Positions 14,326-55,900 of a stretch of 64,000 bases of DNA are shown in pieces. The stretch covers positions 52,764,001 to 52,828,000 of the forward strand of contig NW_024704742.1 of assembly GCF_018977255.1 (NCBI RefSeq). The letters run 5' to 3'. Source of the DNA: Callorhinchus milii. Its lineage: Eukaryota. A program made the translations under genes and the position numbers. The first letter of the stretch is position 1, and each line of letters begins with the position of its first letter. The notes under the pieces were generated by a model. The model was not told the DNA's origin. It was given only the letters and a program-made list of their open reading frames with translations, and made no database searches.

Positions 14326-14835
14326 ACCATTAACATTTGTGGTAATATTTTTATGGATTGAACATTTAACGCAGTCACACTCTTTAAAGTAATTGCAAGT
14401 TATTGTAGTTTTTAGTCAGGTTGTTTTCACAGGGCAGAATTCCATCTTACTTGACTTGCAAGTACCCAGATTTGCACATGGAGTTAAGATTGGCACTTTT
14501 TAATATTTGTAATGTACTTAGATATTGACATGTATCTGTTTTAGAATTACATTTGTGGATTTGACTTTGATATTGTAGCAAACATATGAAAGATTTTGAG
14601 TGAGAACTTAATGTCAGCAAAATTACTTTATCAAACAGCAATTACTTCTTGAAATTTATTAAGGCTTCTTTGCTGACTTCAGATTTGCTCATTTCATAAT
14701 TCTTATGAATCAACAACTCAATGATGGGGAAAAAGCATGATTTCAACCCAATGTGTCTTCAGTTTTTAACATGGTCTACTGCTGTAAAAACAACAACTGA
14801 TAATTCATGCAAAACTTTATTTGTCAGTTTTCAAA

Positions 14836-35900: not shown

Positions 35901-38900
35901 CTCAATTTTATAATTCTGGCACCTCCAACAATGCAATACTCTCCCAGCTCTGGAGCCATCATAGACTCGTGAGCTCAAAATCCCGATACAGGTCTTGAAC
36001 CTACAACCTTCTGACTCACAGTGTTTCCAACTGAACCAGGCTGACACATACCCAAGCCAACAATAAAGTAACTGTCTTTGAAATGGAATATACACTCTGA
36101 CGTATAGGTTACTAGAATCTGGCTTTTATTCATAATAGGTGGACTCTGAGGAGATGGACGGGGGAATCCTATCTCGACAACAAAACCCTTTGGCAGATAA
36201 ACACTCTGTGCCATCAGAGTAAGTAACACCATCAGAGAAAGTAACAGCATTCAGTTAGCAGACTCTCTAATCATGTCCTCAACATCAGAGTAATCTTTCT
36301 GGGATCTGTGTTTTGATCAATAATAATAACAATAATAATGATCCAAGACATTAAACCCAATGTTTGTTAATACACTTTTGGGTTCTAATAACTTATGAGA
36401 TGTAATTTAGGCCTGAATTTTTTATTTTGTTTAAACTTCTTGAAATGTATATAAAACTTCAAATAATTGTGCAATTTTTTATTTGCCTGTAATGGTGTAA
36501 CACACTAATGGTTTGTGTAACTGAGGTTAAGAAAGGTAAACATCAGGTGCAGTGTTTGTTTGTGGTTGAATACAACAACAAAATTACATTTGTATAGCGC
36601 CTTTCATGTTGGGAGGACATCCCAAGGCGCTGGACAATCGGTGTTTCTGACCTGAGCTGGGGGTCGGGATCAGCGAGGGTGGAGGGCAGAAGGGGAAGGA
36701 GGGTGATCGAAGGCACGTTCGAAGAGTAGGGTCTTGAGGTGGGTCTTGAAGGAGGCAAGGGAGGGGGTGAGGTGCAGGCACTATGGGATAAAGTTCCAGA
36801 GGGTGGGGGCAGAGTGGTTGAAGGCCCACCCGCCAATGGTGGGGCAGGCGAGGCGGGGGAGGTAGTTGGCAGGTTGGTCGGGGTTAGGAGGTTGCAGAGG
36901 TAGGGGGGGAAAGGCCATGGAGGTGAGGTGAAGGTGAGGACCAGGATCTTGAACTGTATCCTCTGTGTGATGAAGCCAGTGGAGTCGGGCGAGAATGGGA
37001 GTGATAAGGACACGGAGCCTGGTGCGGGAGAGGACGTGAGTTGCAGAGTTCTGGATGATCTGCAGCCTATGGAGCGAGGAGTTGGGGAGGCTGACAAGCA
37101 GAGAGTTTGAATAGTTATGGATGTTATGAATGCATGTTTGAGGGTTTTGGCGACCTGCGGTGTGCGACAGTGGCGGAGCCAGGCAATGTTCCGGAGGTAG
37201 GGGAAGGCAAAGCGGGGTCATGGCACGAATAATTGTAAAAGAATATGTAAATATCTGTTTAAAATCTATATTTTATCATTGCAGAAAAGAGGAGGCGGGA
37301 ATTATCCGGTCAATGATGATAAAGGTTTTCCGCTGTATTGAGCCGGAGCTGAACAACCTAATTTCACTTGGTGACAAGATTGACAGCTTTAACTCCTTGT
37401 ATATGCTCGTGAAGATGAGCCATCATGTTTGGACAGCAGAGAATGTGGATCCTGCCTCTTTCCTCAGTACCACATTAGGAAATGTCCTTGTGACAGTTAA
37501 AAGGAATTTTGACAAATGCATTGTAGGTGACTATTTAAAAAAAATCTAAACCAAATAACCAGTTTAACTTAAATTATGCATTATGATGTTGGGTTTCATA
37601 TGGTAAAGGAACGTATCCAATGGGATCCTAACATGTCCCTTGTTCCTACGTAACTAAGAAAAATGCAAACTGGAAACATGAAATGTGAAATGTAACTGAA
37701 TATAATCGTCCTGAATAAATTCATCACCTTCTAGTGCTGGTAGCAGAAAGTCCACAATATCTTTGCTTAAAATTCAATTCGTATTTTATGAGTTACACAG
37801 TTTTAACCATCAAAATTTTAAAAAATGTGTGTTTTTGATATGGCATTACAATGAACTAGTTTGGTACTTGTGTGTGACTCTGTAACTGTTGTATAGGAAC
37901 ATAGGATTGTACAGAACAGGCAAAGATCATTTGCAGATCATAAGAGGTTAAGATGAAGAAAACCCTTCAGACAATTTTATCTCATGCTCCCAGAATACTC
38001 ACCCATTGCCCTCCATTTGGCCGGTCTCATTACAAAAAAAATATTAAATTATTCTAGCTATAACAGTATTCTACTATAACAGCCCATAATCAATGTATTT
38101 GCCAGATTGCTATCTAATTACCTCTTGAATTTGCTGACCCAATCTGCCCCCACATCTACCTTGCATAGTCCTTTCTACCTACAGTATTTCACCGTGGTCT
38201 GTGTAAAGCAATTAATCCTAAACTGGTCACCTATATTTTAGGTTTCATCCTGTAAATATTCCAATGTTAATTTGCTTTTGTGTCCTTCACGCTTTTAGTT
38301 GAATCAAATTAAGCAGATGGAAGAAGTGAAAATATCAAAAAAAAGCAAAGTTGGAATCTTGCCTTTTGTTAGTGGATTTGAAGAGTTTGCGGAACTGGCC
38401 GAGTCCATCTTCAGAATTGCAGAGCGCAGGGGTGATCTGAACAAGGCTTACAGCAGGCTTATCCGAGCTGTGTACAACAACGGTGAGGGACTGATAACAT
38501 CTGAACGTGAGCAAGGTGTTTTAGAGCTTTTACTGTAGTGCTTACGGTATGGTACATTTATTCTTGTTCTCAGTGGAAAAAGTGGCTAATGAAAGTCAGA
38601 AGACTCCTCGAGATGTGGTGATGATGGAAAACTTCCACCACATTTTTTCAACCCTCTCTCGCCTCAAAATCGCCTGCCTAGAAATCGAGAGAAAGGAAGC
38701 AAAACAGAAATATACAGAGTACCTGCAAGCTTATGTCATATATTCTCTGGGACAACCGCTTGAGAAACTTAACGTGAGTCTCCTTTACCTCACTAGAAAT
38801 CAATACAATTAAGCCTCTGCAAATCTGAAATTGGTAAGAGTTCTCTAAGGACAGCATATGTTTTGTTTAAAAACGGAAAATGACTGTGGCATTTTTTTAT

Positions 38901-40821
38901 TCAACTATTAATGTTCTTGTTGGCTTGTTTATCTAAATTGTGACTGTTTCTTTCATGAAATGCTTCAGTGGATGATTTTATTCTTGAAACATTTGATGAA
39001 GTAAGAGTGTGTAACTGACTGTTATTGTACACAGTGTGTTCACGTTCTAGGACTAACTAACTTTTATTGTGGATTCAGCATTTCTTTGAAGGCATCGAAG
39101 CTCGTGTGGCACAAGGTATTCGAGAGGAGGAAGTCAGTTACCAACTAGCTTTCAACAAGCAAGAACTCCGTAAAGTTATCAAAGAATATCCTGGAAAGGA
39201 AGTCAAAAAGGGGCTGGATAACCTGTACAAGAAGGTGGATAAGCATCTCTGTGAGGAGGAGAATCTGCTGCAGGTAAGCTTGTGCAGAGTGGAATAGTCG
39301 TACAAGAATAAGATCATGTCCATTACTTCTGATACAATGAGATCCAATACAGCATGTGATAACGGTAATCTTTACGTTTAATTTAGCGCCTTTTCATGTT
39401 GGGAAGAGGTCTCAAAGCATGTTGCATGATATCCTGTAAAGTGGCTTGATGTATTTTGTGGGCAAACATGGCAACCAATTTGCATACTGCAATGTCTCAA
39501 AACTTACCATGAAGAGAATGACCGTTAATGTTATCAGTACTATAGTACAACGCATTCATAGGAGCATTCACTGACTCCCTCTTGTCTCCTACACGTAGCC
39601 TCTCTTAGATTATAATTATGCATACTATCCAAATATTGTAAATTGTCTGTTTAGACATTTTGAGCCTTTTTATTTCTTTATTTTTCCTACGCAATACAGT
39701 GTACAACAGAGAGCCGATATTAAACATTTAATTGCGGCCACTGTAGATAATTGGAAATCATACAAAATACAACTTGGCTACATTGCTAACCAACACATTC
39801 TTCCATCAGATGTACTGTCACCACAGATGTACTCTTCCTAGCTTTCTTTCTCTGACTTTTTTTTCCCTCCGAGTCGCTCTCTCACCTCATCTCTTTTCCT
39901 CTTGTCTGAGGTGCGTATCTCTAAACTCTTTGCCTCTCACTTTCTTGGACATTCTCTGATACTTTGTCTGATTCTCTCCCCATCTCGCATCCTGCTGCTG
40001 CCATGTTTCACTCACAAAATACACAGTCATTTCACAATGTATCTTGTGAAGCGCTTTGAGATGTCTCAACAATGCGTTATATCAAATGCAAGTATTATTA
40101 TTATAGATTGGTAAATAAGCACTTAACTTCACACTACTGGCTCACATGGTCCTATTATCCTTGTGCATATACGCACAACTGGAGCATCTCACAGCTCCCA
40201 AGTTTGCTTCTGTATTGGAAGTGAAACAAGTGGACAACCAGATAATTGGTGTGCAGATATGTTGCGGTCTACTATGTATCCAGGTGGCGGTAATAATTTA
40301 AAAAGTTATAAATAAAAGAGCATGGGAATTGTTAGGACATGAAAAGACTTAGTACTCAACCCTAGCTAACTATTTTCATCATATCCCTCATTTCTTTTTC
40401 TTTCCAAGAGCCTGTCTAGTCGCCTTGTGAACCCATAGATCTGCGCTAGTAATTGATAACGTAAGTTATCAACTAATGTCTCCTGGTGTTTAAAATCTTT
40501 AGGATATTGACCAGATCAATCAGGCCAATCAATCCCTTTCATATAAATAATAAGAACCTTGAAACTACTCTATAAATGTTTATGTTGGCAGTAACCTGTT
40601 AATGAATGACTGGTATTTGTGTAAAATCCTGACCCCCTTTGCTGATGGTGATTTCTTTATCCCCACAGGTTGTGTGGCATTCCATGCAGGATGAGTTCAT
40701 TCGGCAGTACAAACACTTTGAGGGTCTGATAGGTCGTTGTTATCCTGGATCTAGCATTATAATGGAGTTCACAATACAGGACATTCTGGAGTATTTCTCT
40801 AGTATAGCCCAGTCTCACTAA
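14836..40821 (+). CDS. EXOC1: Exocyst complex component 1 (Sec3); join(14836..14959,15914..16044,16915..17074,21703..21890,22365..22592,23448..23580,24852..24961,29516..29665,31120..31225,32688..32732,33566..33729,34539..34649,36139..36218,37285..37522,38299..38482,38574..38773,39079..39273,40669..40821), 2700 nt / 899 aa
   Basis: Runs from [41 protein letters not shown] to [19 protein letters not shown]. All junctions are GT-AG and phases add up to a continuous frame. Confidence 0.97.
15914..16044 (+). CDS. EXOC1: EXOC1 coding exon
   Basis: [50 protein letters not shown]| ... |GTGAGA. Confidence 0.95.
16294..16603 (+). mobile_element. Older, longer subfamily of the same SINE
   Basis: Diverged tRNA head; extra central segment CTCTGTTTAC...GTTAGTCGAT shared with the 53240 copy. 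Confidence 0.8.
16915..17074 (+). CDS. EXOC1: EXOC1 coding exon
   Basis: [19 protein letters not shown]...VSSQLLE; CCAG| ... |GTAAGT. Confidence 0.95.
17792..17812 (+). CDS. EXOC1: Candidate EXOC1 21-nt alternative microexon (ELPKVTE)
   Basis: Long pyrimidine tract then TTTGCAAAG|AACTTCCTAAAGTTACAGAAG|GTTGGT; phase 1-1 and frame-preserving. Confidence 0.75.
18955..19065 (+). repeat. Degenerate ~30-bp tandem repeat, 4 copies
   Basis: ATAGGAATTACCCATGTTAT core. Confidence 0.75.
19633..19962 (-). mobile_element. Young tRNA-derived SINE
   Basis: Near-identical reverse complement of 50026-50356. Confidence 0.9.
21703..21890 (+). CDS. EXOC1: EXOC1 coding exon
   Basis: [34 protein letters not shown]...ELQVLDG; donor |GTGAGT. 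Confidence 0.95.
22365..22592 (+). CDS. EXOC1: EXOC1 coding exon
   Basis: [17 protein letters not shown]...EEIEFLV; TTTAG| ... |GTAAGT. Confidence 0.95.
23448..23580 (+). CDS. EXOC1: EXOC1 coding exon
   Basis: [13 protein letters not shown]...[14 protein letters not shown]| ... |GTATTG. Confidence 0.95.
23843..24200 (+). mobile_element. Penelope-like element relic, GIY-YIG endonuclease region
   Basis: Broken frame [16 protein letters not shown]...[13 protein letters not shown]...NVVYCIHC...[23 protein letters not shown]...HFN. Confidence 0.85.
24852..24961 (+). CDS. EXOC1: EXOC1 coding exon
   Basis: [43 protein letters not shown]| ... |GTACAC. Confidence 0.93.
25947..26000 (+). CDS. EXOC1: Candidate EXOC1 54-nt alternative cassette exon ([18 protein letters not shown])
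   Basis: Long U-rich tract then AATCAG| ... TCT|GTGAGT; phase 0-0, no stop, fits between ...VFVQQ and GHDQ... Confidence 0.7.
28476..28986 (+). mobile_element. L2 LINE 3' fragment
   Basis: FQNSAARVL...[20 protein letters not shown]; tail GGCGCTATACAAATGTAATTTGTTGTTG. Confidence 0.88.
29516..29665 (+). CDS. EXOC1: EXOC1 coding exon
   Basis: [38 protein letters not shown]...EGLNK. Confidence 0.95.
31120..31225 (+). CDS. EXOC1: EXOC1 coding exon
   Basis: [35 protein letters not shown]; donor |GTAAGT. Confidence 0.95.
32688..32732 (+). CDS. EXOC1: EXOC1 45-nt cassette exon ([15 protein letters not shown]), equivalent of mammalian alternative exon 11
   Basis: CATGCAG| ... A|GTGAGT, phase 1-1; peptide matches the recalled mammalian [15 protein letters not shown]. 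Confidence 0.9.
33566..33729 (+). CDS. EXOC1: EXOC1 coding exon
   Basis: [18 protein letters not shown]...[12 protein letters not shown]. Confidence 0.95.
34155..34430 (-). mobile_element. Degenerate SINE copy lacking the head
   Basis: Tail and body motifs (CAATTGCACACAGCAGTGTCCCACA, GGAAACTTGCC) recognisable. Confidence 0.7.
34539..34649 (+). CDS. EXOC1: EXOC1 coding exon
   Basis: [37 protein letters not shown]; donor |GTATGA. Confidence 0.93.
36139..36218 (+). CDS. EXOC1: EXOC1 coding exon (divergent linker)
   Basis: [31 protein letters not shown]| ... GA|GTAAGT; 80 nt supplies the required phase 0 to 2 change. Confidence 0.88.
36572..37225 (-). mobile_element. L2 LINE 3' fragment
   Basis: [18 protein letters not shown]...[11 protein letters not shown] on the - strand; same tail. 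Confidence 0.88.
37285..37522 (+). CDS. EXOC1: EXOC1 coding exon
   Basis: [26 protein letters not shown]...VKRNFDKCI. Confidence 0.95.
38299..38482 (+). CDS. EXOC1: EXOC1 coding exon
   Basis: [24 protein letters not shown]...RAVYNN. Confidence 0.95.
38574..38773 (+). CDS. EXOC1: EXOC1 coding exon (after a 91-nt intron)
   Basis: [23 protein letters not shown]...GQPLEKLN. Confidence 0.95.
39079..39273 (+). CDS. EXOC1: EXOC1 coding exon
   Basis: [32 protein letters not shown]...EEENLLQ. Confidence 0.96.
40669..40821 (+). CDS. EXOC1: EXOC1 terminal coding exon
   Basis: [28 protein letters not shown]...SIAQSH then TAA. Confidence 0.96.
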
Positions 40822-43735
40822 AATATCACAAACAGCAGCCAGGTCATTTTAGTTGTGGTCCTGTTTGATCTCAACTTCAAAAAATTGTCATTGTAACATT
40901 AACTATTTAACTCTAGCTGCACATTGCAACATAGATGCTCAGCTAAACAAACCAAAGCAGAAATGCAAGTAGTAATTCTGTTGATGGCTTTAACATACTA
41001 GCATACTTGAGTTGAACCAAATGTATAAATGTATAAGGCTGCGTCAGCATAGTTTCTTGTCTGTTGCGAGACTTTAAGAGAACATTTCCGTTACTATGTA
41101 AAATAGCGGATTTGTAAAAGCATTTTTAATATTTGAGACTTGGCATTATCGGAAATTCTAGCAACAAGTTTCCTGCAGCGTATTTTAATTAAGTCCATAA
41201 TTTTGCCTTAACTAACGACTTTTTTTTTAGTAGGTTTTTCTTGAGGGAGATTCATGAGACACTGAGACCATTAGTGAACAGGCTAACAGGAGCAGTCAGG
41301 ACCTTGGTGACAGAGTCAGTCAGAGGTGCTTTTGGCCATACTATCAGAGTTTGCTTATTAAATTCAGAAAAATCTGCATTAACTCAGGATTATTATTGTA
41401 GCCATTGTCATTTAGCAGACAGAGTTGAGCAGCAAAATCAAACCCCTCTCAATAGCACTTTCCTCATGAAAAATGTATTGGCTCAGATAAATTAATGTTC
41501 TGGAATGAAGTAAGTACATTAGAATTTCTCTCCGCTGATAATAATTACTTCAATAATTATGTTGAATCACAAACAAAAAGCTGGAATCTTGAACAGGTGG
41601 GGAATGATGTATTGTGAAATTGCTGAACAAATAGAACTGTTTGGTTTGTCCTTAGACTAGTTTTACATTTGGTTTACAGGGTGTTAACAAAATCCTGTTA
41701 CCCCATATGTTTCCTACATGGCACTGACCAACACCTGAAACGTGTAGAAGAATGATGGTAGTTGTATATAGAATTACTTAATTGTATTCAATGCAAATAT
41801 TTAACTGTATTTAAGATGGCCAGAGGATTGTTTTGTGTGAGGGCCATCATTTTCATGGCAGATTATGATCCATCGCCATGTTCCTTAAGGTGATGCAGTG
41901 ACAAGGTGAAATGCATCTCTGACAGCTTGACAGCTTGTTGCAGATCCTGATAGTCTCATATCACTGTTTTGTAATGGAGTAAGAGGACTTGTGGACACCC
42001 TGTACAATGAAACTATGATTTATATACTACTTGGATTCTGTTTTACCATTTCTCGGCAAACTGTCAGTCTTACAGATAGCTGCCCTGTGGCTTTAGCTGT
42101 GTTTTGTAAGCTAAGTGTTTGCCTCTATGTCCTATAATGGGAGTTGGACTTTATGAGCTAATCATGTAAATAGTAATTTCCTTCTATAATGTTTTTCGGG
42201 CTAAATTTTGTTCAGCATAAAACTCTCTACTATCCAATTCTAGGAGAATTGTGAGCAAAGGGGCTTTGCTCGCGCTTTTTTTGTCACTAAAATATGCAGA
42301 TTGCCCACTGGAATTCAACCCAAATGTCAAAGATGTCATTGTCTTATAGGAACAGCCATGTTACAATAGTTCTAATTAAATTACAAAGGATTCACACATA
42401 TACACTCTCATTTTTCAATACTACTAAAAACTATTTTGGCAAATATGATCCACAATTATAAAATTGGAATCTGCATTAGATTAGTGTTTAGGCATAATTT
42501 TTTTTAAAAAAAGACTTTATTTTATGCATTCTGCTTCTCATATTTCTTGTGAGAATGACCATTTATTTAACATAGAAAAACAGCCGAGAAAATCTGATTT
42601 GAATTCAATACATGGATATCATTCATGCATTCCTTTGTTATTCTTTAAGTTCCATAGATTTAGGTAATAATACAAAAAGGATGTTTTCACTTTAATACAA
42701 CAAATATCTGATATTTCTATCTCGTTCTCACAACACGTATTTACGGACCTTAGAAAAAACACCATTGTTAACCATGTTAAGATATAATGAACACATTAGC
42801 CACAATGCATTATTTTTTTATGTAACATAACACTAATCATGACTTATTTTGCAAGGTTTGCTAAAATAACAACTGCTTTTATGCAGCATTATGAAAGGAG
42901 GCTTGACATTTCTGACAGCTGGAGATATTTACTGCAGTATTTCATATGCTTATTGTTAAATATAAGACTTGTAGCAGACCTAAATCATGTTCCAGTTAAT
43001 TAAATTTTTATTGTAAAGATTATAAGCAGCCATTTAACAAGTATGAGCTCTTGGCTTACTCTATTATGTTTTGAGAGGGGCAGTAGGATGGCAGAAGGAG
43101 CTATTTGGGGTTGATGTGAACGTAACCTGAAGATTGATTTAGCTTGAGATTTTTGAATGTACATCAAGGAAACGTTTTGTGCATTATGTGCACTCACTCC
43201 AGCTTCACTATTGTTTCATAAGGATTTGGTAGAATTGCATAGTCAGCAGAAGTGTTAGTAAAGGGGGAGCTTTATTATTTATTTGCACAAAAACATTTCT
43301 GGTCAACTGAATAATGTTTAGTTAGACGAGCACATTTCTGAATATCTCCATGTGCTTCTAGTGTAGGACCTTTGATAATAAATGTGTTTACCAGGAAATG
43401 TGGTGCAACTAACCAACCATCAGGGTATTTACATTCCTACATCTGCACGTATGTGCATTGTGGGGCAAGGCAAGTACCTTCTTTGTGGTAAATATTTCAG
43501 ATATTATTCTGGAAAATTATGGTTTTAAGTTTATATTTGTTCGAGCTCTAGGCACTACCAGTCAGCAAATGATTTGTGTTTAGCCTTCAGCCATGCTGTC
43601 GTCAATGACGTGTGTAATAAGGAGTTATAATCTGCTGAGGGAATAGATTCTGTGAACAAACTGTGCACTAATAACTATGTATCACTGAATTCAAAACACT
43701 ATTAATAAAAGAAAGTGAACTTCATTCCTTTTGTA
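40822..43735 (+). other. Probable long EXOC1 3' UTR with candidate poly(A) signals
   Basis: About 2.9 kb of AT-rich sequence with no recognisable repeats; AATAAA at ~43377 and ~43703; SINE-derived sequence resumes at ~43770. Confidence 0.45.
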
Positions 43736-44239
43736 AGTCTATCTTTCACTATAATTCATGGAATATGGCTGTTTGGGCACATTGCTGTCGCAAACTGTGC
43801 CACCGCGTTTGCCTACAAATGCACAGTCAATCCACTTCACAGTAAATCCTGTGCAGCGCTTTGGGACTTCTTCGCAACATGAAAGACGCAATACAAAAAA
43901 ATGTAAGCAATGTGTCCATTTCATCGACTTGGTATTGTATTTTGTATTCCACAGAGTTCAGAGTCAAAATTGCTGTGAAGCTTTGCAGTGCGTATCAGAG
44001 GGATGGTGAGGACTCGGGCAGCACATCTCGTGCAATTCCTATTAGGAACAATTTAGAAACAAGAAAGTAACACTGGGCACAACGAGCCCCTTCTTGCTCC
44101 TCAACAACAACTTGCATTTACTATGTACGGTTATTTATTCAATCCCCACCCAATTGATTTCTCAGCACATTTCTCAATCCATTTTCTACACAGGATACAG
44201 TAGTTCTGGACCCCAGAACTATTGAACTAGAATTAGTTA

Positions 44240-44510
44240 GGCCATTTAAGAGTGAAATCAGGAAGGATGTTTCCACTCAAAGGGTGGTAGAAATCTGGAA
44301 TCCTCTCCCCCAAAAGGCCGTGGATTCTGGATCCATCCACACCTTCAAGAGTGAGGTTGATAGATTTTTGGTAGGTCAGGATATCAAGGGATATGGGGAG
44401 AAAGTGAGAAATTGGAATTGAAAGGATTAGTTGAGGTACAGATCAGCCATGGTCTAATTAAATGGCGGAACAGGCTCGCAGGGCTGAATGGCCTCCTCCT
44501 GTTCCTATGA
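44240..44510 (+). mobile_element. CR1-clade LINE 3' end
   Basis: STQRVVEIWNPLPQKAV...FKSEVDRFL followed by GGGCTGAATGGCCTCCTCCTGTTCCTATG, typical of fish/shark CR1; antisense CR1 scraps at ~19460-19630 and ~51770-51990. Confidence 0.8.
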
Positions 44511-45216
44511 CCCATTTCTAATAATGTTCTACCGCTGCCCACCACGAGTGCGCAATAGCCTATAATATTGCACAAAGCTAATCAATAAATCTCAGCTGTT
44601 TTTTCAAATGTGCTCAACGTCAACTTAATGGTTCACTGGAAGGTTCAGCAGAGGTCCCCAACGACGGCAAACACGCCAATGAACAAGTATTTTGCTTCCC
44701 GCCCCCATCGCAAGAAAATTTACAGCGTTTCCAAAAGAGCCGCCGCGCACTTCATCCACGTGTAGCGGTTTGTGTCCCTCTGGTGTCTGCTCCGCCGCTG
44801 GTGCTTTCTCCGCCGTGACAGACGTCACCCTTTTAATGGAAGGATTTTTTTTTTCTTCTCCGCACGACCAAACTATTCACAGACGGGGACACTTCTGTCA
44901 AGGTTTTCCCTCTTAAATCTACTTTGTTCCTCCCGACGTGAAAGGCGCTCTATAAATGGAATCTTCTTGTTGTTGTTGTTGTTGTTGTTGTTCCAGGGGA
45001 AGAATCCCAACTTTTCAACAACAATTCGCACTTACGCAGAAGTCCATCGCGCGGAGTCGTGTATTGGAGCGATTAACGGGGGTGGAACCTGCGGCCAAGA
45101 CGGGGGGGAGGGGGGGGAGGGAGGGGGGAGGGAGGGGGCGACTGTGGGCACAAGAGGAAGGTCCTCGCGATCAGAAACTGGGCCGGAACTCGGGCAACGC
45201 GGGCAGGTCCTCTCCT

Positions 45217-45830
45217 CCGGGGGCAGTGCAGTGCAGTGCCGGGGGCCGCCGCTGGTGGCGCTGTTCCCGGGGGGGGGCAGTGCAGTGCCGGGGGCCGCCG
45301 CTGGTGGCGCTGTTCCCGGGGGCAGTGCAGTGCCGGGGGCCGCCGCTGGTGGCGCTGTTCCCGGGGCAGTGCAGTGCCGGGGGCCGCCGCTGGTGGCGCT
45401 GTTCCCGGGGGCAGTGCCGGGGGGCGCCGCTGGTGGCGCTGTTCCCGGGGCAGTGCCGGGGGGCGCCGCTGGTGGCGCTGTTCCCGGGGGCAGTGCCGGG
45501 GGTCGCCGCTGGTGGCGCTGTTCCCGGGGGCAGTGCAGTGCAGTGCCGGGGGCCGCCGCTGGTGGCGCTGTTCCCGGGGGCAGTGCAGTGCCGGGGGCCG
45601 CCGCTGGTGGCGCTGTGCCCGGGGGGGGGCAGTGCAGTGCCGGGGGCCGCCGCTGGTGGCGCTGTTCCCGGGGGGGGCAGTGCAGTGCCGGGGGCCGCCG
45701 CTGGTGGCGCTGTTCCCGGGGGGGGGCAGTGCCGGGGGCCGCCGCTGGTGGCGCTGTGCCCGGGGGGCAGTGCAGTGCAGTGCCGGGGGCCGCCGCTGGT
45801 GGCGCTGTTCCCGGGGGCAGTGCCGGGGCC
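45217..45830 (+). repeat. GC-rich minisatellite, 13 units of 39-51 bp (CAGTGCCGGGGGCCGCCGCTGGTGGCGCTGTTCCCGGGG)
   Basis: GCTGGTGGCG counted 13 times between 45251 and 45804. Confidence 0.95.
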
Positions 45831-46058
45831 GCGCGCCGTTTTTGAACTTGTTGCCGCGGAGCCGCGAGGGCCGAGACCGCGGCGGAGAGCAGCGGAGAGG
45901 CCGAGACTGGGCCGCGGGTCAACCCGGACACCGGACACCGGGACACCGGACACCGGGACACCGGACACCGGGACAGGCCGCGGGCAACAGGCGGAGGGGC
46001 AGCGGGAGAGAGAGAGAGAGAGAGAGCGCGCGGGGCGGCCCTGAGCCTCCGGGAGACA
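45831..46058 (+). promoter_or_regulatory. Putative CEP135 core promoter (CDE/CHR) and non-coding exon 1
   Basis: CpG island. CGCGC-N4-TTTGAA at 45832-45846 has canonical CDE/CHR spacing. Donor ACA|GTGAGT with GT at 46059. The ATG exon has an acceptor CCAG| at 52800. Confidence 0.6.
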
Positions 46059-46140
46059 GTGAGTGACAGCGCGACCCCGAGCACCGCCATCATCATCATC
46101 TTCATCATCATCACAGACTCACTGCAGCTCCAGTGCAGAG

Positions 46141-48626
46141 CCCCACAACACCGCCCAACAACACCCACACACCCCCACACACACCAACAACCCCCACACC
46201 CCACACACACCCCCACACACCCCAACACACCCCAACACAACACCGCCCAACAACACCCCCCACACCCCACACACACACACCCCACACAACACACAACACC
46301 GCCCAACAACACCCACACACACCCCAACACCCCACACCACACACCCCCACCACCCCAACACACCACCCCCAACACACACACACCACACACACCACACACA
46401 CCCCAACACCGCCCAACAACACACACACACCCCACACACACACACCCCCACACACACACAACCCCCAACAACACCCACACCACCCCAACACCCCACACAC
46501 ACACACCCCCAACACACCCCAACACACAACACCCCCACACACCAACACACACACACACCCCAACACCCCACACACACACACCCCCAACACACCCACACAC
46601 ACACCCCCCAACAACACACACACACCAACACACACACACACCCCAACACCCAACACACACACACACCCCACACACACACCCCCACACAACACACAACACC
46701 GCCCAACAACACCCACACACACCCCAACACCCCACACACACACACCCCCAACACACCCCAACACACAACACCGCCCAACAACACACACACACCAACACAC
46801 CACACACACCCCAACACCGCCCAACAACACACACACACCCCACAACACCCCACACACACACCAACACACCCCAACACAACACCGCCCAACAACACACACA
46901 CACACCACACACACCCCCCACACACACACCCCAACACCCCCAACACACCCACACACACACACACCCCCAACACACCCCAACACAACACCCCCAACACCCC
47001 CACACCCACACACCACACCCCACACAACACACAACACCGCCCAACAACACCCACACACACCCCAACACCCCACACACACACACCCCAACACACCCCAACA
47101 CAACACCGCCCAACACCCCCCACACCCCACACACACACACCCCCAACACACCCCAACACACAACACCGCCCAACAACACACACACACCACACACACACCC
47201 ACACACCCCCCAACACCCACACACACCCCACACCCCAACAACACCCACACACCCCAACACCCCACACACACACACCCCCAACACACCCCAACCACACACC
47301 CCCAACAACACACACACACCACACACACCCCAACACCCACACACCCCACACACACACACACCCCAACACACCCCAACACCCCACACACACACCCCAACAC
47401 ACCCAACACACAGCAACCCCAACACACCTCCACCACACACACCCAACACCCAGCAACCCCAACACGCCTCCACCACACACACCCAACACCCAGCAACCCC
47501 AACACCCACACACACACACACCCCACACACAACCCCACACACCCCAACACCGCCCAACAACACCCCACACACCCCCACACCCACACACACCCCCACACCC
47601 CAACACCCCAACAACACCCACACACACCCCCACACCCCAACACCGCACACACCCACACACACCCCACACCCCAACACCGCCCAACAACACCCACACACCA
47701 CACACACACCCACACACCCCCCAACACCCACACACACCCCACACCCCAACAACACCCACACACCCCAACACCCCACACACACACACCCCCAACACACCCC
47801 AACACACAACACCGCCCAACAACACACACACACCACACACACCCCAACACCCACACACCCCACACACACACACACCCCAACAACACCCCAACACCCCACA
47901 CACACACACACCCCACACACAACCCCACACACCCCAACACCGCCCAACAACACCCACACACCACACCCCACACACACACCAACAACCCCCACACCCCACA
48001 CACACCCCCACACACACCCCAACACACCCCACACCCCAACAACCCCCACACCCCACACACACCCCACACACACACCAACACACCCCACACCCCAACACAC
48101 CCCACACAACACACAACACCGCCCAACAACACCCCCCACACACACCAACACACCCCAACACACCCCCCATACACACAACCCCACACACCCCAACACCCCA
48201 CACACACACCCCCACACCCCAACACCGCCCAACAACACCCACACACCCCAACACACCCCAACACCCCCCCCACACACACACACACACCCCAACACACCCC
48301 CCACACACACCACACACCCCAACAACACCCACACCCCCCACACACCTCACACACACCCCAACACCCCACACACACCCCAACACCCCCCAACACACCCCAA
48401 CACACCCCAACACACCCCACACCCCAACACACCCCACACCCCACACCCCAACACACCCCCCACAACACCGCCCAACAACACCCACACCACACACCACCCA
48501 ACACCCCCACACACCCCACACAACACCACCCAACACCCCCACACACCCCACACAACACCACCCAACACCCCCACACCCCCAACACTCCCCCCCACACCCC
48601 CAACAGACCCTCCCCCCCCCCCCCCC
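46141..48626 (+). repeat. C/A-only low-complexity tract with recurring CACCGCCCAAC
   Basis: About 2.5 kb almost devoid of T and G; 18 CCGCCCAAC counted. Confidence 0.95.
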
Positions 48627-48689
48627 GGGAATCAAGCTCCCGATATTCCGCCTCCTCCCAGTTTTCTGATATAACAATAATAATAAACC

Positions 48690-48985
48690 GTTTATTATGT
48701 GTTTGTCGCAGAAACTGTTCACATCTTCACACCGTCTCAAAGCGCTTCACACGATGTACTTACTGTGCGCTGCAGTGTAGTGACTGTGTGTTTGCTGACT
48801 GTGAGCGGCAGAAGTGAGCAGTTTTGTTTGTGGGATTGCCGGCCATGACGCCGGGAGAAACTCCCTTCCCTTCTGGAATAGCGGGATCTCTTAACGTTCA
48901 CCTGAACGGGCAGACGAGCCTCGTAATGTCTCATCTAAAGGACGGCTCCTCGGACGGTCAGGGTTCCCAGCGCTGCATTAAGATG
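48690..48985 (-). mobile_element. Old Deu-domain SINE relic
   Basis: GGGATCTCTTAACGTTCACCTGAACGGGCAGACGAGCCTCG...GTCTCATCTAAAGGACGGC resembles the recalled antisense Deu core of SacSINE1/AmnSINE-type elements. Confidence 0.65.
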
Positions 48986-48997
48986 ACTATGAGCCCA

Positions 48998-49830
48998 AAT
49001 TCTGGAGCTCCATCCCACAGTCCCTCCGCCTCAACTCCTCCTTTGCCTCCTTCAAGACCCGACTCGAGACCCTCCTCTTCGACCGCCCTCCTTCCCCTAC
49101 TCTCCCCGCTCTCTGCCCCATCCTGATCCCAAACACCAGCTCGGATGTGGATCCCGACTGTCGGAATGTCCTCCTGATGTCAAAGGCATTTTACAAATGT
49201 AATTTGTTGTTGTTGAAGTTCCTCTGTAAACCTACAATCCCACCTTTTTGTTTTCTCGGCGCTAAACTCTCCTAACCCTTCGCCCGTAATCTCACTCGCT
49301 CAGCTTTCCCTCTTTTCTCCCACATTACCAGTCTGCGTCTCTACCCCCACTCAAGGCTTTCAAGACCCTCATCCACACCGTCATTTCTAGGCTTTTATTT
49401 CAAGCTCACAGAACTTCCCAACCCCCTCGCCGGATCCTGGTCCTCACCTACAAAGCCCTCCATGGCCTCGCCCCACCCTACCTCTGCGACCTCCTAACCC
49501 CCTACCAACCCGCCCGCTCCCTCCGCTCAGCCGGCTCTGGCCTGCTCCAGGTCCCCCGACCCATCCGACCCACCATTGGCGGAGAGCCTTCAGCCCCTCT
49601 GCCCCCAACCTCTGGAATTCCATCCCCCAATCACTCCGCCTCACCCCCTCCTCAGCCTCCTTCAAGTCCCGCCTCAAGACCCTCCTCTCCGACCATGCTA
49701 TCGGCCACCCCCCCCCCCCCCCCGACCCCAGCTTGAGTCTGAAATGCTGTACACTGTCCAGCGCTTTGGGACGTCCTCCCGACGTGAAAGGCGCTATACA
49801 AATGTGTTGTGGTTGTTGGTTGGTTGTTGC
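48998..49830 (+). mobile_element. Two tandem L2 LINE 3' fragments (~48998-49215, ~49240-49830)
   Basis: ILVLTYKALHGLAPPYLCDLL; each ends in the conserved tail and (GTT)n. Confidence 0.8.
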
Positions 49831-50025
49831 ACAAGTTGCTGATCGTCCACAACTGTAGTTCTCACCAGACTGTGTGAGCCTGTCATCCCATCCCTGCTGA
49901 ATTCCATCGGTTCGCCATCCACCAACGGATCATATCCTCGATCGCACTTCCAAGTCTCACCTCGCTCCACGTTTTACCCGGGACTTTACTGCCCCGGATA
50001 CTCCCTCTGCTCAGTCTATTTTATG

Positions 50026-50356
50026 TCGTGGAGTCCTGTAGCTCAGTGGTTAGAGCACTCGCTTTGCAAGCGAGAGACCTGAGTTCAATTCCAGGCAGAG
50101 GGCGAAACCTTGGGCAAGTTTCCTTACTCCACACAGAGCCTAATAATAATCCCTCCAAAACCAAAAAACAATAATAAATTGGTCATTTTCAATCTACGAC
50201 TGTTTGTGGGACATTGCTGTGCGCAATTGGCTGCCGCGTTCGCCCACAAATATACAGTCAAATCACTTTACAGTGTGTTCTGTGAAGCGCTTTGGGACGT
50301 CCTCCCGACGTGAAAAGCGCTATATCAAATGCAAGGATTATTATTATTATTATTAT
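50026..50356 (+). mobile_element. Young full-length tRNA(Ala-like)-derived SINE
   Basis: A-box, anticodon-like arm CTCGC-TTTGCAA-GCGAG, B-box, body GGGACATTGCTGTGCGCAATTGGCTGCCGCG, LINE-like tail and (ATT)n. Confidence 0.92.
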
Positions 50357-50989
50357 GTCACCGCTTGATCCAGTGAACTTTGAGCCATTCTGTCCCCTCT
50401 TTCTGGAAACTGCATCCTGGAATCCCTCGCCTTGCCCCCTCCCCGCATTAAGACTTATCTTTTCAAACACGCTTCAGGTCACCTGCTCCCCCTCCACCAG
50501 CTCCAATCAGCTGTTTGACGCCTGAGACCGCTCCTGACATGAAAGGGTCTATATGTGTAATTGTTGTTGTTAAACAGTACTATTGGTGCAATCTAAGTAG
50601 TGTACATCTACATGTAAACACTTTAGTCAATAGTTGTGTAAATAAGTAATGAACCGAGAGTTGTAATTAGAGGGTGTACAATGAGGAACGTTAATGAGAG
50701 CTGCTCAGCTATGTCGTTGGATAATGATCCTTGTATCTACACTGGAGAGAGCAACATGATGCCACTGACAACATTATACTGTTATATTGTTAACTGACTA
50801 AAACCGCAGTCTGATCAGTAAAGCAGTGTGTTATCATTTCAAAGTGCTATTTGCCAAAAGAAGCGCAAGTCGGGGTGTAATTTCACTCTGGATCCAGGCT
50901 GTTGTGAAAAATTCAGGAAGGAGAGGATGTGACTGGGACCAGCGGACACTGTGCATCTATTGCAAGCTTTGCTGAAGAAAAAGAGCTGT

Positions 50990-51290
50990 GTTGTCAGGGA
51001 TGGTGTCCTTTCGACGAGATGTTAAGCCAAGCTCCCACCTGCCTGTTGAGATGGATGTTAAAGAACCCTTAGTCATATGAAAAGAGAAAGGAAAAGTTTC
51101 TCCCAGTGTCCTGGACAACAATCTTCTAGATTAATTGATCATTCACCTTGTTGTGGACTTTGCTGTGCACAACTGACTGTACAATGACTGTATGTTTGCC
51201 CACAAACGTAGTCACTCCACTCCACAGTAATTACCTATTGTGGCTTTGCAATGTTACCGGCAATTAATCAAATGCAAAGATTATTATCCT
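50990..51290 (+). mobile_element. Old Deu-domain SINE relic
   Basis: GTCCTTTCGACGAGATGTTAAGCC...TGGATGTTAAAGAACCC...TTTCTCCCAGTGTCCTGG; related remnants at ~1660-1858, ~2660-2900 and ~35905-36055 (-). Confidence 0.65.
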
Positions 51291-52837
51291 TTTTATACAA
51301 CAGGAAGTTTTGCATCATGTTCTTAAAAAACATCTTAAATGTTTAGTGCTGTGGTTGTTGTTACTTCTGCGTGTGTTTCTCAGACATTCTCTCTTGCTGT
51401 GGCCCCGCTGTCTGTTTGCCTCAGTGACATCCTTTTCAACCGCCTATGGGTTCAATTTCTTTTCCCCACCAAAAAAAGTAAGCTTTAGTCAGGTGGATAT
51501 TCTGGGAGGATCGGATCTCGTGGGTCAAAGGGCCTTCTTTAGCCAAACTTCTAATGATCCAGACCAGAAGCTACAATCTGTAATGCACTACCGGACTAAA
51601 CATCTGTTGAGACACAAAGTATTGAAAAATGACCATTGTATGAATTGCCTGTGCCTTCTGACACCGTATTGTTGTGAAATTTGATGCGTTATCATATCAA
51701 GCAGTGAACAGATCACATGGGGTTAACTATTGTTAGTTACTCTGGATTTGAAAGCTCCCAATTATACAGTCACGAGCGAACGATTTGGCCCATCAGTCTA
51801 TCCTGGAGGTGTTCTCCATGTAAAACATCTAAACCAATCCTACTCTCTCGCTCACTCTCCGCACCCTTAAATATTCCCCTCTTCAAGCAGCTAATTCCCT
51901 GTTAACATCATTTCTAATCTGTGTTTCAGCGATGGTTTGTGGTGGAGATTCCACCCACCACTGTGTGAAGGTTTTTTTTTTACAATTCCTTTCGTGTTTC
52001 GGATTGTTTTTATTCTGGAAAGCAGGTTGTGCAATGGCTGTGCTGATGCCACCGTTGCAAGCAGTGGTGTTGTCAGTGTGTTCCTCCAGCTTGTGTAAAA
52101 ACTAGGCGCGTATGTAATTTGAATGAAACACCGGATTTCTCACGGTCCTCGTACCAGTTATAAATCGTCCAATCTCCAGTCGCCCCTCTTTAACATTTAT
52201 GTCATACAACGTCCATTATTCGGTAGCCTCTAAGTCTCGTGCGCAGATGAACCGCAATCTCAGATGTGCCATTCAGCAGCGGTGGCTGCGTCAATCTTAG
52301 AGATCCATAGGGCTTTCGTCGAGGACAGTACAGAGCTTAATTACAGTAATAATTTACATTCAATGTAGAGATCGGAGGAGGGACATCTTAAAGTGCTTCA
52401 AAGGACACACTGTAAAGTCGCTGTATTTCGTAGGTGACTGTTTAGCTGTTGATTTCTTGAACTCCCACTCTGGTACTTTTGACTTTTGGTACTTTAGGGG
52501 TTTTACCCTCTTCTCCCCTTTGGTGGGCGAGCGGCCTGACTGCCCGGGAGTGTAGTGACTGTCAGCGCCGGCCCTGTTGCTGTGCTCGGTTTCCTTTGTT
52601 CTTGGTCGGTCGGTTCTAGTCCTGTGGTTCTAATTCCTTTGGTTGAGTGACGTCGTTCCAGATTACATTCTTCATGGCCGCAGTGGAGGGAGTGGGAAAA
52701 CATCGAGCTGCGGGCTACTGCCTACGGGCAGAAGGCTTTCTTTGATGTCTGTGCTCGGGGTCACGTTTACGTTGTGTTTCCTGCTTGTCTCGGTATCCAG
52801 GATTTTACCCACGTTTTGCTGTTGAGAATCACTGGAT

Positions 52838-52950
52838 ATGACGACCGCCTCGGAGAGAAAGTTCATAAACCTGCGGAAACGCTTGGATCAACTTGGCTAC
52901 AGACAGCCTCTCGGGATAGAGTCCCTTCCGCTGGTGGAGAAGCTTTTCAG
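52838..52950 (+). CDS. CEP135: CEP135 first coding exon
   Basis: ATG at 52838; donor AG|GTACAA, phase 2. Confidence 0.95.
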
Positions 52951-55900
52951 GTACAATGGCAAGAAATGCTGTAGTATATTTTCTGCCAGCATACTTTCAA
53001 ATAATCTGAGAGCTTGTTTGATGAAGAAAAATGTTCTGCCCAGGCGCAGGAGAACTTGGCAGGACCTTGCCTCATGAGCGGGTTAAGTCATTTCATAGGA
53101 CGGTTGTGCCAGAAAGGCGGAGAGGGTCCAATTCTTTAGCTGCTCCTGACAATCCAAATTTTGACAAAATTGAAACAAAATTTACCGACTTGACAGCGAG
53201 TTTCAAGTTTCGTGAAACAAGCCAATGCAGAAATCAACTTGTAGCTCAGTGGTTAGAGCACTCGCCTCGCAAACAAGAGACCTGATTTTGCTTTCCGACA
53301 GGGCGAAATGTTGGGTAAGTTTCCTTACTCCACAAGCCTCTGTTTACCTAGTAGTAAGTGGGAACTTGGTTGTTAGTCGATTGGCGGATGGCTTTTCCAG
53401 GGATAATAATCCTTAAAAAAAAAACAATAAGAATTTGGTCACTCATTCCACGACTGTTTGTGGGACATTGCTGTGCGCAATTGGCTGCTACGTTTCGCCC
53501 ACAAATATACAGTCAATTCACTTTACAGTATATTCTGTGAAGCGCTTTGAGACATCTGGAAGATGTGAAAAGCGCTATATCAAATAGAAGGATTATTATT
53601 ATTTATTATTATAATCTGCGATAAATCTGTACATGTCCAGCAGGTCATGCTGTTTGAGTTTTGGGTATGTGCTTCCTGCGTAATATTCTAAAAGCTGTTG
53701 TTGTTTTGCAGTGATTTGGTGCACACAACAGAAAGCCTCCGCAATGCCAAGCTGTCATGTGGGAAAACCGAGAAGGAGATTGAGAACCTGGACGCTGTAC
53801 TTGAGCCGTACAGGACTGAGAATGGACAGCTTGTCAGGGAAAACAATATGCTGCACCAACAATTACTAAAAGTAAAGGAAGAGTCAGATCACCTCTGCAG
53901 AGGTAAGTTTGCATGCAGAAAAGTTATTGAAGGTAAGTGAAGGAGGTAGAGCAAACGTAAACAAATTTACATTTAAATAATACCTTTCAAGTCAGAGGAT
54001 GTCCTTGGGCTCTGGACAGTCCTGGCTTGGGACCTGAGCTGGGCTTAAAGTATTCATGAAACAATATACAATAATTATTTACCCAGCAAAGTACTCCTTC
54101 ATTGCTGCAAATGCATCAGCAGGTGTACAGCATTCAGAGCCTGGTTTTATTTTGTGTGTTCCACGTGTATGTATTGAAAATTTAAGTCTTATTTTAAAAG
54201 CCTTTGACCCAGAAAGTACTTATTAGATCAGGACACATGCTAATAAATAAACATCAGACAGTATTGGGTTTACAACCCCATCTTTTGCTCTTTTGGAATT
54301 TCCATCTTTGAGGTCAGTCTTCATTCAAGAGGTTGTGATAATAATAATGATCCTTGCGTTTGATATAGCCTTATCGCATTCTTTATGTCTCAAAGCACTT
54401 TGTAGAAAAAACTGTAAAGCGAAACTGTGTATGACTGCATATTTTGTGGGTGAAACGCAACCAATTGCACACACCAGTGTCCTACAAACAGCCGTGGATT
54501 GAGTGACCAAATTATTATTTTTACCTGGTCCATCTGTTACTTGCTGTTCTAAGGAGAAACTTGTTAATTGACTTTCCTGTTAAATTACATTATGGGTAAG
54601 GATTTGCACCCTGACCTAACTTCATTGAAAGTTACTGTGCTGTTTGTTGAGGGGATGGGAACATCAATGGCTGTTGATAGACATTACCAATTATTTTCAT
54701 GGATATTCTACAATTTTTTCTCAGAATTTATTTTGTCAAATTTCTGTATCCTGTACTGTATTGGTAAAAGTTTTAAGAATTATTTTATACCTCAAAAAAC
54801 TTATCACTCAAGGGAAAAGGGCTCAGAGGCGAAATATCAGGAGTGGAGAGTTAGGCACATGTATAAATACACAAATAAATGTGGTTGGGGTATTGATAGC
54901 ATGATGACAAGTGGTAGTGAAAAGTTAAGCCAGGGTCGAGTTATCAGGAGTTTACTGTATAAGACTATTTATTTTCCAACCGCTGTTTAAATTGGATCCC
55001 ATTATAACACAGTAGTGTGGATCCATAAAATCAGACACCACGTGATAATGGTGATGTCACTAAGCCACAAATTTCTGCCGAAAGCCACTCAGGAACTGCT
55101 CTCAAGAACATATTCAGCAGTTGCTGGGATATGCATGGAGGCCATATCTCAACAACAACAACAACAACAAGATTCCATTTATAGAGCGCCTTTCACGTCG
55201 GGAGGACGTCCCAAGGCGCTGCACAGTTGGGTCATGACCCGAGCAGGGGGGAAATGGTCAGGGTGAGGGGAGGGAAGGGAGCGAGGAGGGGGAAATGGTC
55301 AGGGTGAGGGGAGGGAAGGGAGGGAGCGAGGAGGGGGGAAATGGTCAGGGTGAGGGGAGGGAAGGGAGGGAGCGAGGAGGAGGAAGAGAGTCGAGAGGGG
55401 AGCTGAAGGCTCGGTCTCCTGCATATCATGCACAGAAAGTGAGCTATTCAGCACTGGAAACCACAAGTGTACTATATTTCCTGTAAGCTTTGGATCGATG
55501 GTGTGTCTGCACTATATATAGACCCACATGACAATAATATCGATATACCAAAGCACAGTATGATGGGCCCTGGCTGTATATTTTATACCTTCTGTGGCAC
55601 AGGTTATTTAGCATAAAGAAACATTTTGAATTAACAGTATCCTTTTATTTATTTTTGGCTTCTTTACTCACAGGAGAGACACAGGAGAGAAGGCAATTAA
55701 ACTATCCTATTTGCAAAGAGCATTTGCAAAGACTGAAATTTTAGATTCATAGTTAAACAGGAACCCTTCAACAACAACAACAAATTACATTTGTACAGCA
55801 ACTTCCACGTTGGGAGGGCATCCTAAGGCATTGGACAGGGATTTGGACCCGAGCTGGGGGTTGGGATCGGGAGGGGTGAAAAGCAGGCAGGGTAGGGGTA

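What the first reader, a model, noticed from the sequence alone, without database searches (positions are those of the whole stretch)
45217..45846. Minisatellite whose unit is a full-length CTCF-like site, 13 co-oriented copies against the CEP135 promoter
Seen: 13 tandem units of (T/G)GCAGTGCC-N7-GCCGCTGGTGGCGCTG. The 7-nt spacer and core are invariant in length; unit-length variation is confined to the G-run and to the number of CAGTG copies. The array ends directly at a CDE/CHR-like element. Known: CTCF binds CCASYAGRKGGCRS (11/14 match here) and zinc fingers 9-11 read an upstream TGCAG-type motif at about this spacing. Inference: one promoter-proximal CTCF site was amplified into a variable-number, CpG-dense and therefore methylation-sensitive array. 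It could act as a directional loop anchor or insulator between EXOC1 and CEP135.
Basis: partly seen in the sequence, partly recalled or inferred. Interest (0 to 1): 0.72.

Follow-up and report, generated by a model that had tools for sequence, protein, structure and literature searches.

The report
Damaged CTCF site repeated before CEP135
Just upstream of the centriole gene CEP135, an elephant-shark-type genome carries 13 tandem copies of what looks like a binding site for the genome-organising protein CTCF with one base missing, where humans have a single strong site that switches the promoter on; whether CTCF still binds these copies is untested.

Summary
The array is real: 13 units of 39-51 nt plus a partial one, ending at a CDE/CHR block that matches the human CEP135 promoter at 14 of 17 bases (by eye). 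The host's CEP135 matches Callorhinchus milii. The unit is not an intact CTCF site. One gap at the A of the AG step repairs both faults (16.9 bits, canonical spacing, 0 of 1500 shuffles). The human CEP135 promoter has one strong CTCF site on the same strand, upstream of the same CHR, and mutating it cut reporter activity about 5- to 8-fold in four cell lines (published). So the array most likely descends from the promoter's CTCF site, one base short. If it acts, it is as a cluster of weak sites that supports the promoter, not as an insulator. Binding, methylation and copy-number variation are untested. The scan noted another CTCF-motif minisatellite (at XPA) in this genome, not this locus.

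The parts
45217..45809 (+). 13 full minisatellite units, 39-51 nt: C2-3, G4-9, (CAGTG)1-3, CC, 7-nt spacer, invariant core, TT or TG; 5 CpG per unit
45810..45830 (+). partial 14th unit (G5, one CAGTG, then G4), running into the CDE-like bases
   Evidence: covered by two X1 contigs
45232..45263 (+). first of 13 CTCF-like modules (upstream motif, linker, core lacking matrix column 9); the others end 45312, 45357, 45401, 45441, 45480, 45520, 45570, 45615, 45664, 45712, 45756, 45807
45616..45634 (+). second, G-run register of the CTCF matrix in a G9 unit (9.2 bits, p 7e-5 uniform); like sites of 8.0 bits in units 2 and 12; reached by 55-91 of 1000 shuffles
45831..45836 (+). CDE-like G/C hexamer, 4 nt upstream of the CHR
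   Evidence: definition in PMC4176359
45832..45848 (+). 17-nt block matching the human CEP135 CDE/CHR block at 14 of 17 positions; holds CHR TTTGAA at 45841-45846 (the human CHR is on the other strand in the same register)
   Evidence: by-eye comparison
45850..46058 (+). putative non-coding exon 1 of CEP135; start inferred from the CHR, end from the only GT[A/G]AG donor between 45000 and 48800 (GT at 46059)
   Evidence: human exon 1 has the same donor word about 113 nt after its CHR; no RNA support obtained
45922..45975 (+). small 7/15-nt tandem repeat in the putative exon 1; 15 nt shorter in run X1
44792..44803 (+). single 12-nt copy of the unit's core, in an 18-nt tandem pair (44780-44815), 454 nt before the first core
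   Evidence: 0 of 300 flank shuffles give a shared 12-mer
52838..52948 (+). first coding exon of CEP135, 7.0 kb downstream of the array
   Evidence: 37 of 37 residues identical to P0004
40661..40821 (+). last coding exon of EXOC1; stop 4.4 kb upstream of the array
   Evidence: Pfam Sec3_C-term; sequence; stop

Best explanation
The array is the CEP135 promoter's ancestral CTCF site, lacking the A of the AG step, amplified 13-fold by local tandem duplication (inferred; about 0.75 for this origin). Each copy keeps the half read by zinc fingers 3-5 almost perfectly and an upstream motif, but fingers 6-7 and 9-11 meet their bases one position out of register, so each copy is at most a low-affinity site (inferred from structure and matrix). 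Thirteen such sites, plus the G-run register in long-G units, in a CpG island would give modest summed occupancy that does the job of the single strong human site: supporting basal activity of the promoter next to the cell-cycle CDE/CHR element (inferred, not shown). G-run and CAGTG slippage would tune it.
For: Gapped register: upstream motif 8 of 8, canonical 8-nt linker, 16.9 bits, 0 of 1500 shuffles for each of two unit types; even ungapped, upstream motif plus core at 7-9 nt is reached by only 3 of 1500; none of 98 upstream-motif matches elsewhere in the window is followed by such a core. Matrix columns 10-19 score 12.6 of 13.7 bits. The geometry (9-nt upstream motif, 8 nt, CC) is that of the reference probe in PMC10287918. 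Human CEP135 promoter: a 13/14 CTCF core on the same strand, about 177 nt upstream of the orthologous CHR (by eye; about 21 bits by hand); picked from ChIP-seq peaks; log2 mutant/wild type -2.85, -3.08, -2.21, -2.56 in four lines, one of 9 of 168 CTCF sites active in all four. No other strong motif in the shark promoter region: best are 9.7 and 8.6 bits. One lesion only, and no CpG decay in 65 CpGs. The two-part motif is shared by lamprey, chicken and human.
Against: Ungapped core 0.4 bits, p 1.8e-3, 733 of 1500 shuffles, against 17.9 and 16.5 bits for real motifs in this window. A strong upstream site does not rescue a defective core in vitro, and fingers 1-7 read contiguous triplets, so a gap inside the core cannot simply be skipped. 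The human site has no upstream motif at 8 or 9 nt (1 and 2 of 8, by eye) and lies 177 nt, not 48 nt, from the CHR. The T of TGCAG arises from CAGTG doubling. No orthologous shark, ray or chimaera promoter could be read. The matrix is recalled, not fetched.
Confidence: 0.37

Rival explanations
1. Same origin, but the copies are dead: the deletion ended CTCF binding and the stretch was amplified neutrally, as other promoter and splice-site pieces seem to have been in this genome.
For: Core score at chance level; defective cores fall into non-specific binding whatever the flank; three misses on columns where the unit's base has a frequency of 1.4-2.3%. The unchanged core is not proof of selection: 0 of 3 substitution types fall in it, and units are not independent. 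Earlier scan notes report several promoter or gene-end minisatellites in this genome (unchecked).
Against: The human counterpart carries most of the promoter's activity, so silent loss would need a substitute, and none strong is seen. Apart from the one gap the site is undecayed. The linker keeps its length in 13 of 13 units while the neighbouring G-run takes five lengths.
Confidence: 0.3
2. Chance look-alike: an ordinary G-rich, Chi-containing promoter minisatellite built from a 12-13-nt subunit; any effect is through other GC-box, E2F-like or zinc-finger factors or through G+C content.
For: 11/14 is reached by 990 of 2000 shuffles and on both strands. Each unit holds the Chi octamer, 13 of the window's 18 copies, listed with the minisatellite core among recombination motifs. 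The unit's self-match peaks at shifts 12 and 13 (21 and 19 of 40; no shuffle control run). An E2F-like heptamer occurs in 11 units. A 12-nt copy of the core, also without the A, lies 454 nt upstream, which may point to a motif of its own.
Against: It leaves the exact upstream-motif geometry (0 of 1500) and the same-strand human site unexplained. The array is not G-quadruplex-prone (G4Hunter mean 0.80, no short-loop motif) and does not fold better than shuffles (3 of 4 tests at 41-164 of 200; one at 13 of 200).
Confidence: 0.23
3. One reading: 13 occupied, co-oriented CTCF sites form a directional loop anchor or insulator between EXOC1 and CEP135.
For: Upstream-motif sites are typical of insulators, 2-4 tandem copies were needed in one screen, and one paper gives a linker range of 2-7 bp around a usual 5, which would admit this spacing (4 by my conversion). 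A reverse motif at 24348 and forward motifs here and at 59956 would be a divergent arrangement.
Against: Core at chance level; predicted dosage-dependent insulation needs strong sites, and tandem arrays of non-boundary sites did not insulate; the human counterpart was found activating in plasmid reporters, where looping is largely absent; the array lies 11 nt from the CHR, inside the promoter.
Confidence: 0.1

Closest known systems
Human CEP135 promoter CTCF site (Whitfield et al. 2012, PMC3491394; passages and supplementary row seen)
   Same: Same gene, same strand, upstream of the same CDE/CHR block.
   Different: One strong intact core without an upstream motif, 177 nt from the CHR, function shown; here 13 one-base-short copies with an upstream motif, 48-592 nt from the CHR, function untested.
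DXPas34 minisatellite beside the mouse Tsix promoter (PMC3149622; passages seen)
   Same: CpG-rich 30-34-bp monomers, each said to hold a CTCF site, next to a promoter, lineage-restricted.
   Different: Proposed origin from a mobile element; regulatory role tested in mouse; here the unit seems to come from a resident promoter site and fails the core test.
Full-length CTCF sites read by zinc fingers 3-11 (PMC10287918 section and supplement, PMC10484683 and PMC12885311 passages)
   Same: Upstream motif identical to the reference probe's first 9 bases in 9 of 13 units; G-rich half of the core nearly ideal.
   Different: Core one base short; in the ungapped register three near-invariant positions are missed and the linker is 7, not 8 or 9.
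DXZ4 macrosatellite (search listing only) and promoter VNTRs with transcription-factor sites such as HRAS1 or INS (recalled)
   Same: Tandem CpG-rich repeat with repeated factor sites.
   Different: DXZ4 is far larger and a shown chromatin hinge; for this array neither length polymorphism nor binding is shown.

Membership tests
CTCF site, core | Matrix match at p < 1e-4 and above composition-matched chance | tested here: not met
   0.4 bits, p 1.8e-3 uniform, 3.7e-4 at window GC, 0.011 at 80% GC; 733 of 1500 shuffles; recalled MA0139.1
CTCF site, core | C, A and A at matrix columns 4, 6 and 9 | tested here: not met
   G, C and T, frequencies 0.023, 0.014, 0.020
CTCF site, core | G-rich half read by fingers 3-5 | tested here: met
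   12.6 of 13.7 bits, columns 10-19
CTCF site, full length | Upstream TGCAG-type motif | tested here: met
   8 of 8 informative positions in 9 units, 7 of 8 in 4
CTCF site, full length | 8 or 9 nt between the upstream 9-mer and the core's first C | tested here: inconclusive
   7 nt in the ungapped register, 8 nt only with the gap; one paper allows a wider range
CTCF site, full length | Occupancy in vitro or in vivo | not testable with these tools
   No C. milii CTCF data found; none existed in 2017
Insulator / loop anchor | Enhancer blocking or a contact boundary at strong oriented sites | not testable with these tools
   The strong-site condition is not met
VNTR | Tandem units of 10-60 nt | tested here: met
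VNTR | Copy number differs between individuals | tested here: inconclusive
   Run X1 holds a unit type absent from the window (13 of 40 31-mers) but no record spans the array; a homopolymer error in the assembly is not excluded
CDE/CHR promoter | TTTGAA near the start site with a G/C-rich element 4 nt upstream, conserved | tested here: met
   the start site itself is inferred
CDE/CHR promoter | DREAM/MuvB binding and cell-cycle expression | not testable with these tools
   Human CEP135 is in a LIN37-dependent repression list but was found only in the all-genes sheet of PMC4176359
G-quadruplex minisatellite | G4Hunter at least 1.2 or four G3 tracts with short loops | tested here: not met
   mean 0.80, 15% of windows at 1.2 or more, no short-loop motif

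The most novel reading that the evidence does not exclude
A natural swap of affinity for number: an activating CTCF site kept at the CEP135 promoter since the common ancestor of jawed vertebrates lost one base in the chimaera line and was compensated by 13-fold amplification, so that unit count, G-run length and CAGTG count act as a heritable dial on CTCF occupancy and CEP135 expression. It would also show CTCF using a core one base short or a 7-nt linker.
Probability: 0.22. Interest if true: 0.72.

Novelty: new variant of a known kind. Interest (0 to 1): 0.5.

Why it matters
CTCF-motif minisatellites beside promoters are known, but here the likely single-copy counterpart is a human site whose effect has been measured. 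That makes a direct test possible of whether many weak CTCF sites can replace one strong promoter site, and of how CTCF tolerates a one-base gap in its core. If the copies are inert, it is a neat fossil of a dead site and a warning that consensus counts such as 11/14 mean little in 80% GC DNA.

Tried and rejected
No whole genome is held for this window, so no genome-wide count of such arrays and no background of real minisatellites was possible; shuffles stood in. Run search: 24 listed, 14 hold part of 43300-46140, all one species label, no RNA holder listed; no evidence on expression or on other species. Laying 4 of those runs on 45759-46140: the three guessed-RNA runs gave only two short pieces on the small repeat, or nothing, and the part with the splice donor was skipped as repeat, so exon 1 and the start site stay inferred. 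G-quadruplex and hairpin readings not supported. The G-run register is not beyond chance (55-91 of 1000; the value printed for unit 11 belongs to its neighbour). TRF reported only part of the array. Rfam on 40000-54000: one tRNA-like hit, none at the array. Pfam and solved structures did not name CEP135; the protein search did. PMC6251859, PMC5716687, PMC10290554, PMC5006368 and PMC7471279 added nothing decisive. No look-alike stretch in earlier findings. Chi as a functional signal rejected: it is a bacterial RecBCD signal (established knowledge).

Full report
Observation. The array is as described. Parsing gives 13 full units at 45217-45809 (39-51 nt) and a partial unit to about 45830. The 17-nt core is identical in all 13 and occurs nowhere else in the window; the spacer is 7 nt in all 13, with sequence variants in 3; the first G-run takes 4, 5, 6, 8 or 9 G and CAGTG occurs 1-3 times. 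Every unit has 5 CpG and none has decayed. The region is 81% G+C with CpG observed/expected 0.71, against 0.38 for the window. A contig of run X1 joins two units with no differing letter in its aligned pieces, and a second runs from the last core through the CHR, so the unit sequence is not peculiar to this assembly. That contig holds a unit type not in the window (13 of its 40 31-mers are absent), and X1 lacks 15 nt of the small repeat at 45926. No record spans the array, so copy-number variation is not shown.

Setting. Exons at 38299-40821 match Pfam Sec3_C-term. Exons from 52838 on match CEP135; the best named hits among 937 are Callorhinchus milii at 98-100%, then sharks and rays at 91% or less. 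The ATG is 7 kb from the array, so 'promoter' needed a test. The supplement of Müller et al. 2014 (PMC4176359; passages and supplementary rows seen, one file unreadable, the other cut when stored) lists for human CEP135 a conserved G/C hexamer at +68 and CHR at +78 and prints the promoter. By eye, window 45832-45848 matches that block at 14 of 17 bases, and both are followed by the same donor word, 218 nt later here and about 113 nt later in human. EXOC1 and CEP135 are neighbours on one strand in human too. CHRs lie at or near start sites. So the array ends within a few bases of the CEP135 core promoter. The start site and exon 1 are inferred; the RNA test gave no answer.

Is the unit a CTCF site? 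All matrix scores use MA0139.1 counts recalled from memory. Of 1500 dinucleotide shuffles of a unit, 733 do as well; 990 of 2000 reach 11/14. The misses are at columns 4, 6 and 9, where the unit's bases have frequencies of 1.4-2.3%; columns 10-19 give 12.6 of 13.7 bits. The same paper finds that even the best upstream site cannot rescue a defective core. Against a flat rejection: upstream motif plus ungapped core is reached by only 3 of 1500 shuffles, and PMC12885311 (passages) gives a linker range of 2-7 around a usual 5.

One base short. If matrix column 9 is skipped, the unit has the upstream motif at 8 of 8, the canonical 8-nt linker and a 16.9-bit core; 0 of 1500 shuffles match that under the same freedom, for either of two unit types, and the gapped core alone is reached by 18 and 40 of 1500. 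None of 98 upstream-motif matches elsewhere in the window has such a core. The model is post hoc and the repeat was picked from many, so this alone is weak. Since fingers 1-7 read contiguous triplets (PMC10484683, passages), the gap should cost most of the affinity.

The human counterpart. The printed human promoter holds a 13/14 CTCF core on the same strand, about 100 nt before the annotated start and 177 nt before the CHR (about 21 bits by hand, not run through a program). Whitfield et al. 2012 (PMC3491394; passages and supplementary row seen) chose this site from ChIP-seq peaks and mutated it: log2 mutant/wild type was -2.85, -3.08, -2.21 and -2.56 in K562, HCT116, HT1080 and HepG2, one of 9 of 168 CTCF sites active in all four lines. 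The authors note that an insulating effect within the promoter could also give this result. This is independent of the motif statistics and raises the odds that the shark unit descends from a promoter CTCF site. It does not prove orthology: the human site lacks the upstream motif, lies further from the CHR (177 against 48 nt for the last unit), and no third species could be read. The two-part binding mode is shared by lamprey, chicken and human (PMC5504073, passages), so it should hold in a chimaera.

Mechanism. Shown: tandem structure, promoter position, failure of the intact-site test, the one-gap fit, the human site's effect (published). Inferred: descent from that site (about 0.75); weak summed binding that supports the promoter (0.37); an inert relic (0.30); a chance look-alike (0.23); a strong insulator or loop anchor (0.10). 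For weak function: only one lesion, no CpG decay, constant linker length, no other strong motif nearby (best 9.7 and 8.6 bits). For inertness: the in vitro behaviour of defective cores. For chance: the Chi octamer in each unit, a 12-13-nt internal period, the T of TGCAG made by CAGTG doubling (9 of 13 units), and a lone 12-nt copy of the core upstream. Against the insulator: AkitaV2 modelling and the experiments it cites say weak tandem sites do not add up to insulation (PMC11828424, passages).

Known relatives and novelty. DXPas34 is a CpG-rich, CTCF-motif minisatellite beside a promoter (PMC3149622, passages). Earlier, unchecked notes of this scan describe another CTCF-motif minisatellite at XPA and other amplified promoter or splice pieces in this genome. 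Searches for CEP135 with CTCF and promoter (8 papers), for C. milii with repeats and CTCF (top 20 of 1,422 listed) and for CTCF minisatellites (top 30 of 409) showed no description of this array; subscription journals, and shark CTCF ChIP-seq data cited, were not searchable. It is a new variant of a known kind: an amplified, damaged copy of a site whose single human counterpart is known to matter. Interest 0.5.

Noticed in passing
window 46141-48605: A 2.45-kb degenerate AC-rich repeat (strong strand skew) at the start of the putative first intron of CEP135.
   Followed up: no
window 44780-44815: An 18-nt tandem pair that shares 12 nt with the array's core and overlaps a weak reverse CTCF match at 44771 (8.6 bits), at the upstream edge of the CpG island.
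   Followed up: partly
window 45841-45846: The CHR reads forward here and reverse in human within the same aligned 17-nt block: two substitutions flip it while the G/C hexamer stays upstream.
   Followed up: partly
window 59956-59974 (+) and 24348-24366 (-): Two strong core-only CTCF motifs (17.9 and 16.5 bits) in divergent orientation around the EXOC1-CEP135 junction; no upstream motif at 8 nt.
   Followed up: partly
window 12629-14330, 55247-55385, 45103-45140: G-rich repeats with high G4Hunter means (2.34, 1.77, 3.11); the last lies 80 nt upstream of the array.
   Followed up: no
window 45922-45975: Small tandem repeat in the putative 5' untranslated exon; 15 nt shorter in run X1.
   Followed up: partly
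window 50036-50098 and about 53240-53580: tRNA-like head (Rfam RF00005) of what looks like a SINE with a short-repeat tail; a second copy by eye in the next intron.
   Followed up: no
window 43377, 43704, 44584: AATAAA words 2.5-3.8 kb after the EXOC1 stop; its 3' end may lie close to the CEP135 CpG island.
   Followed up: no
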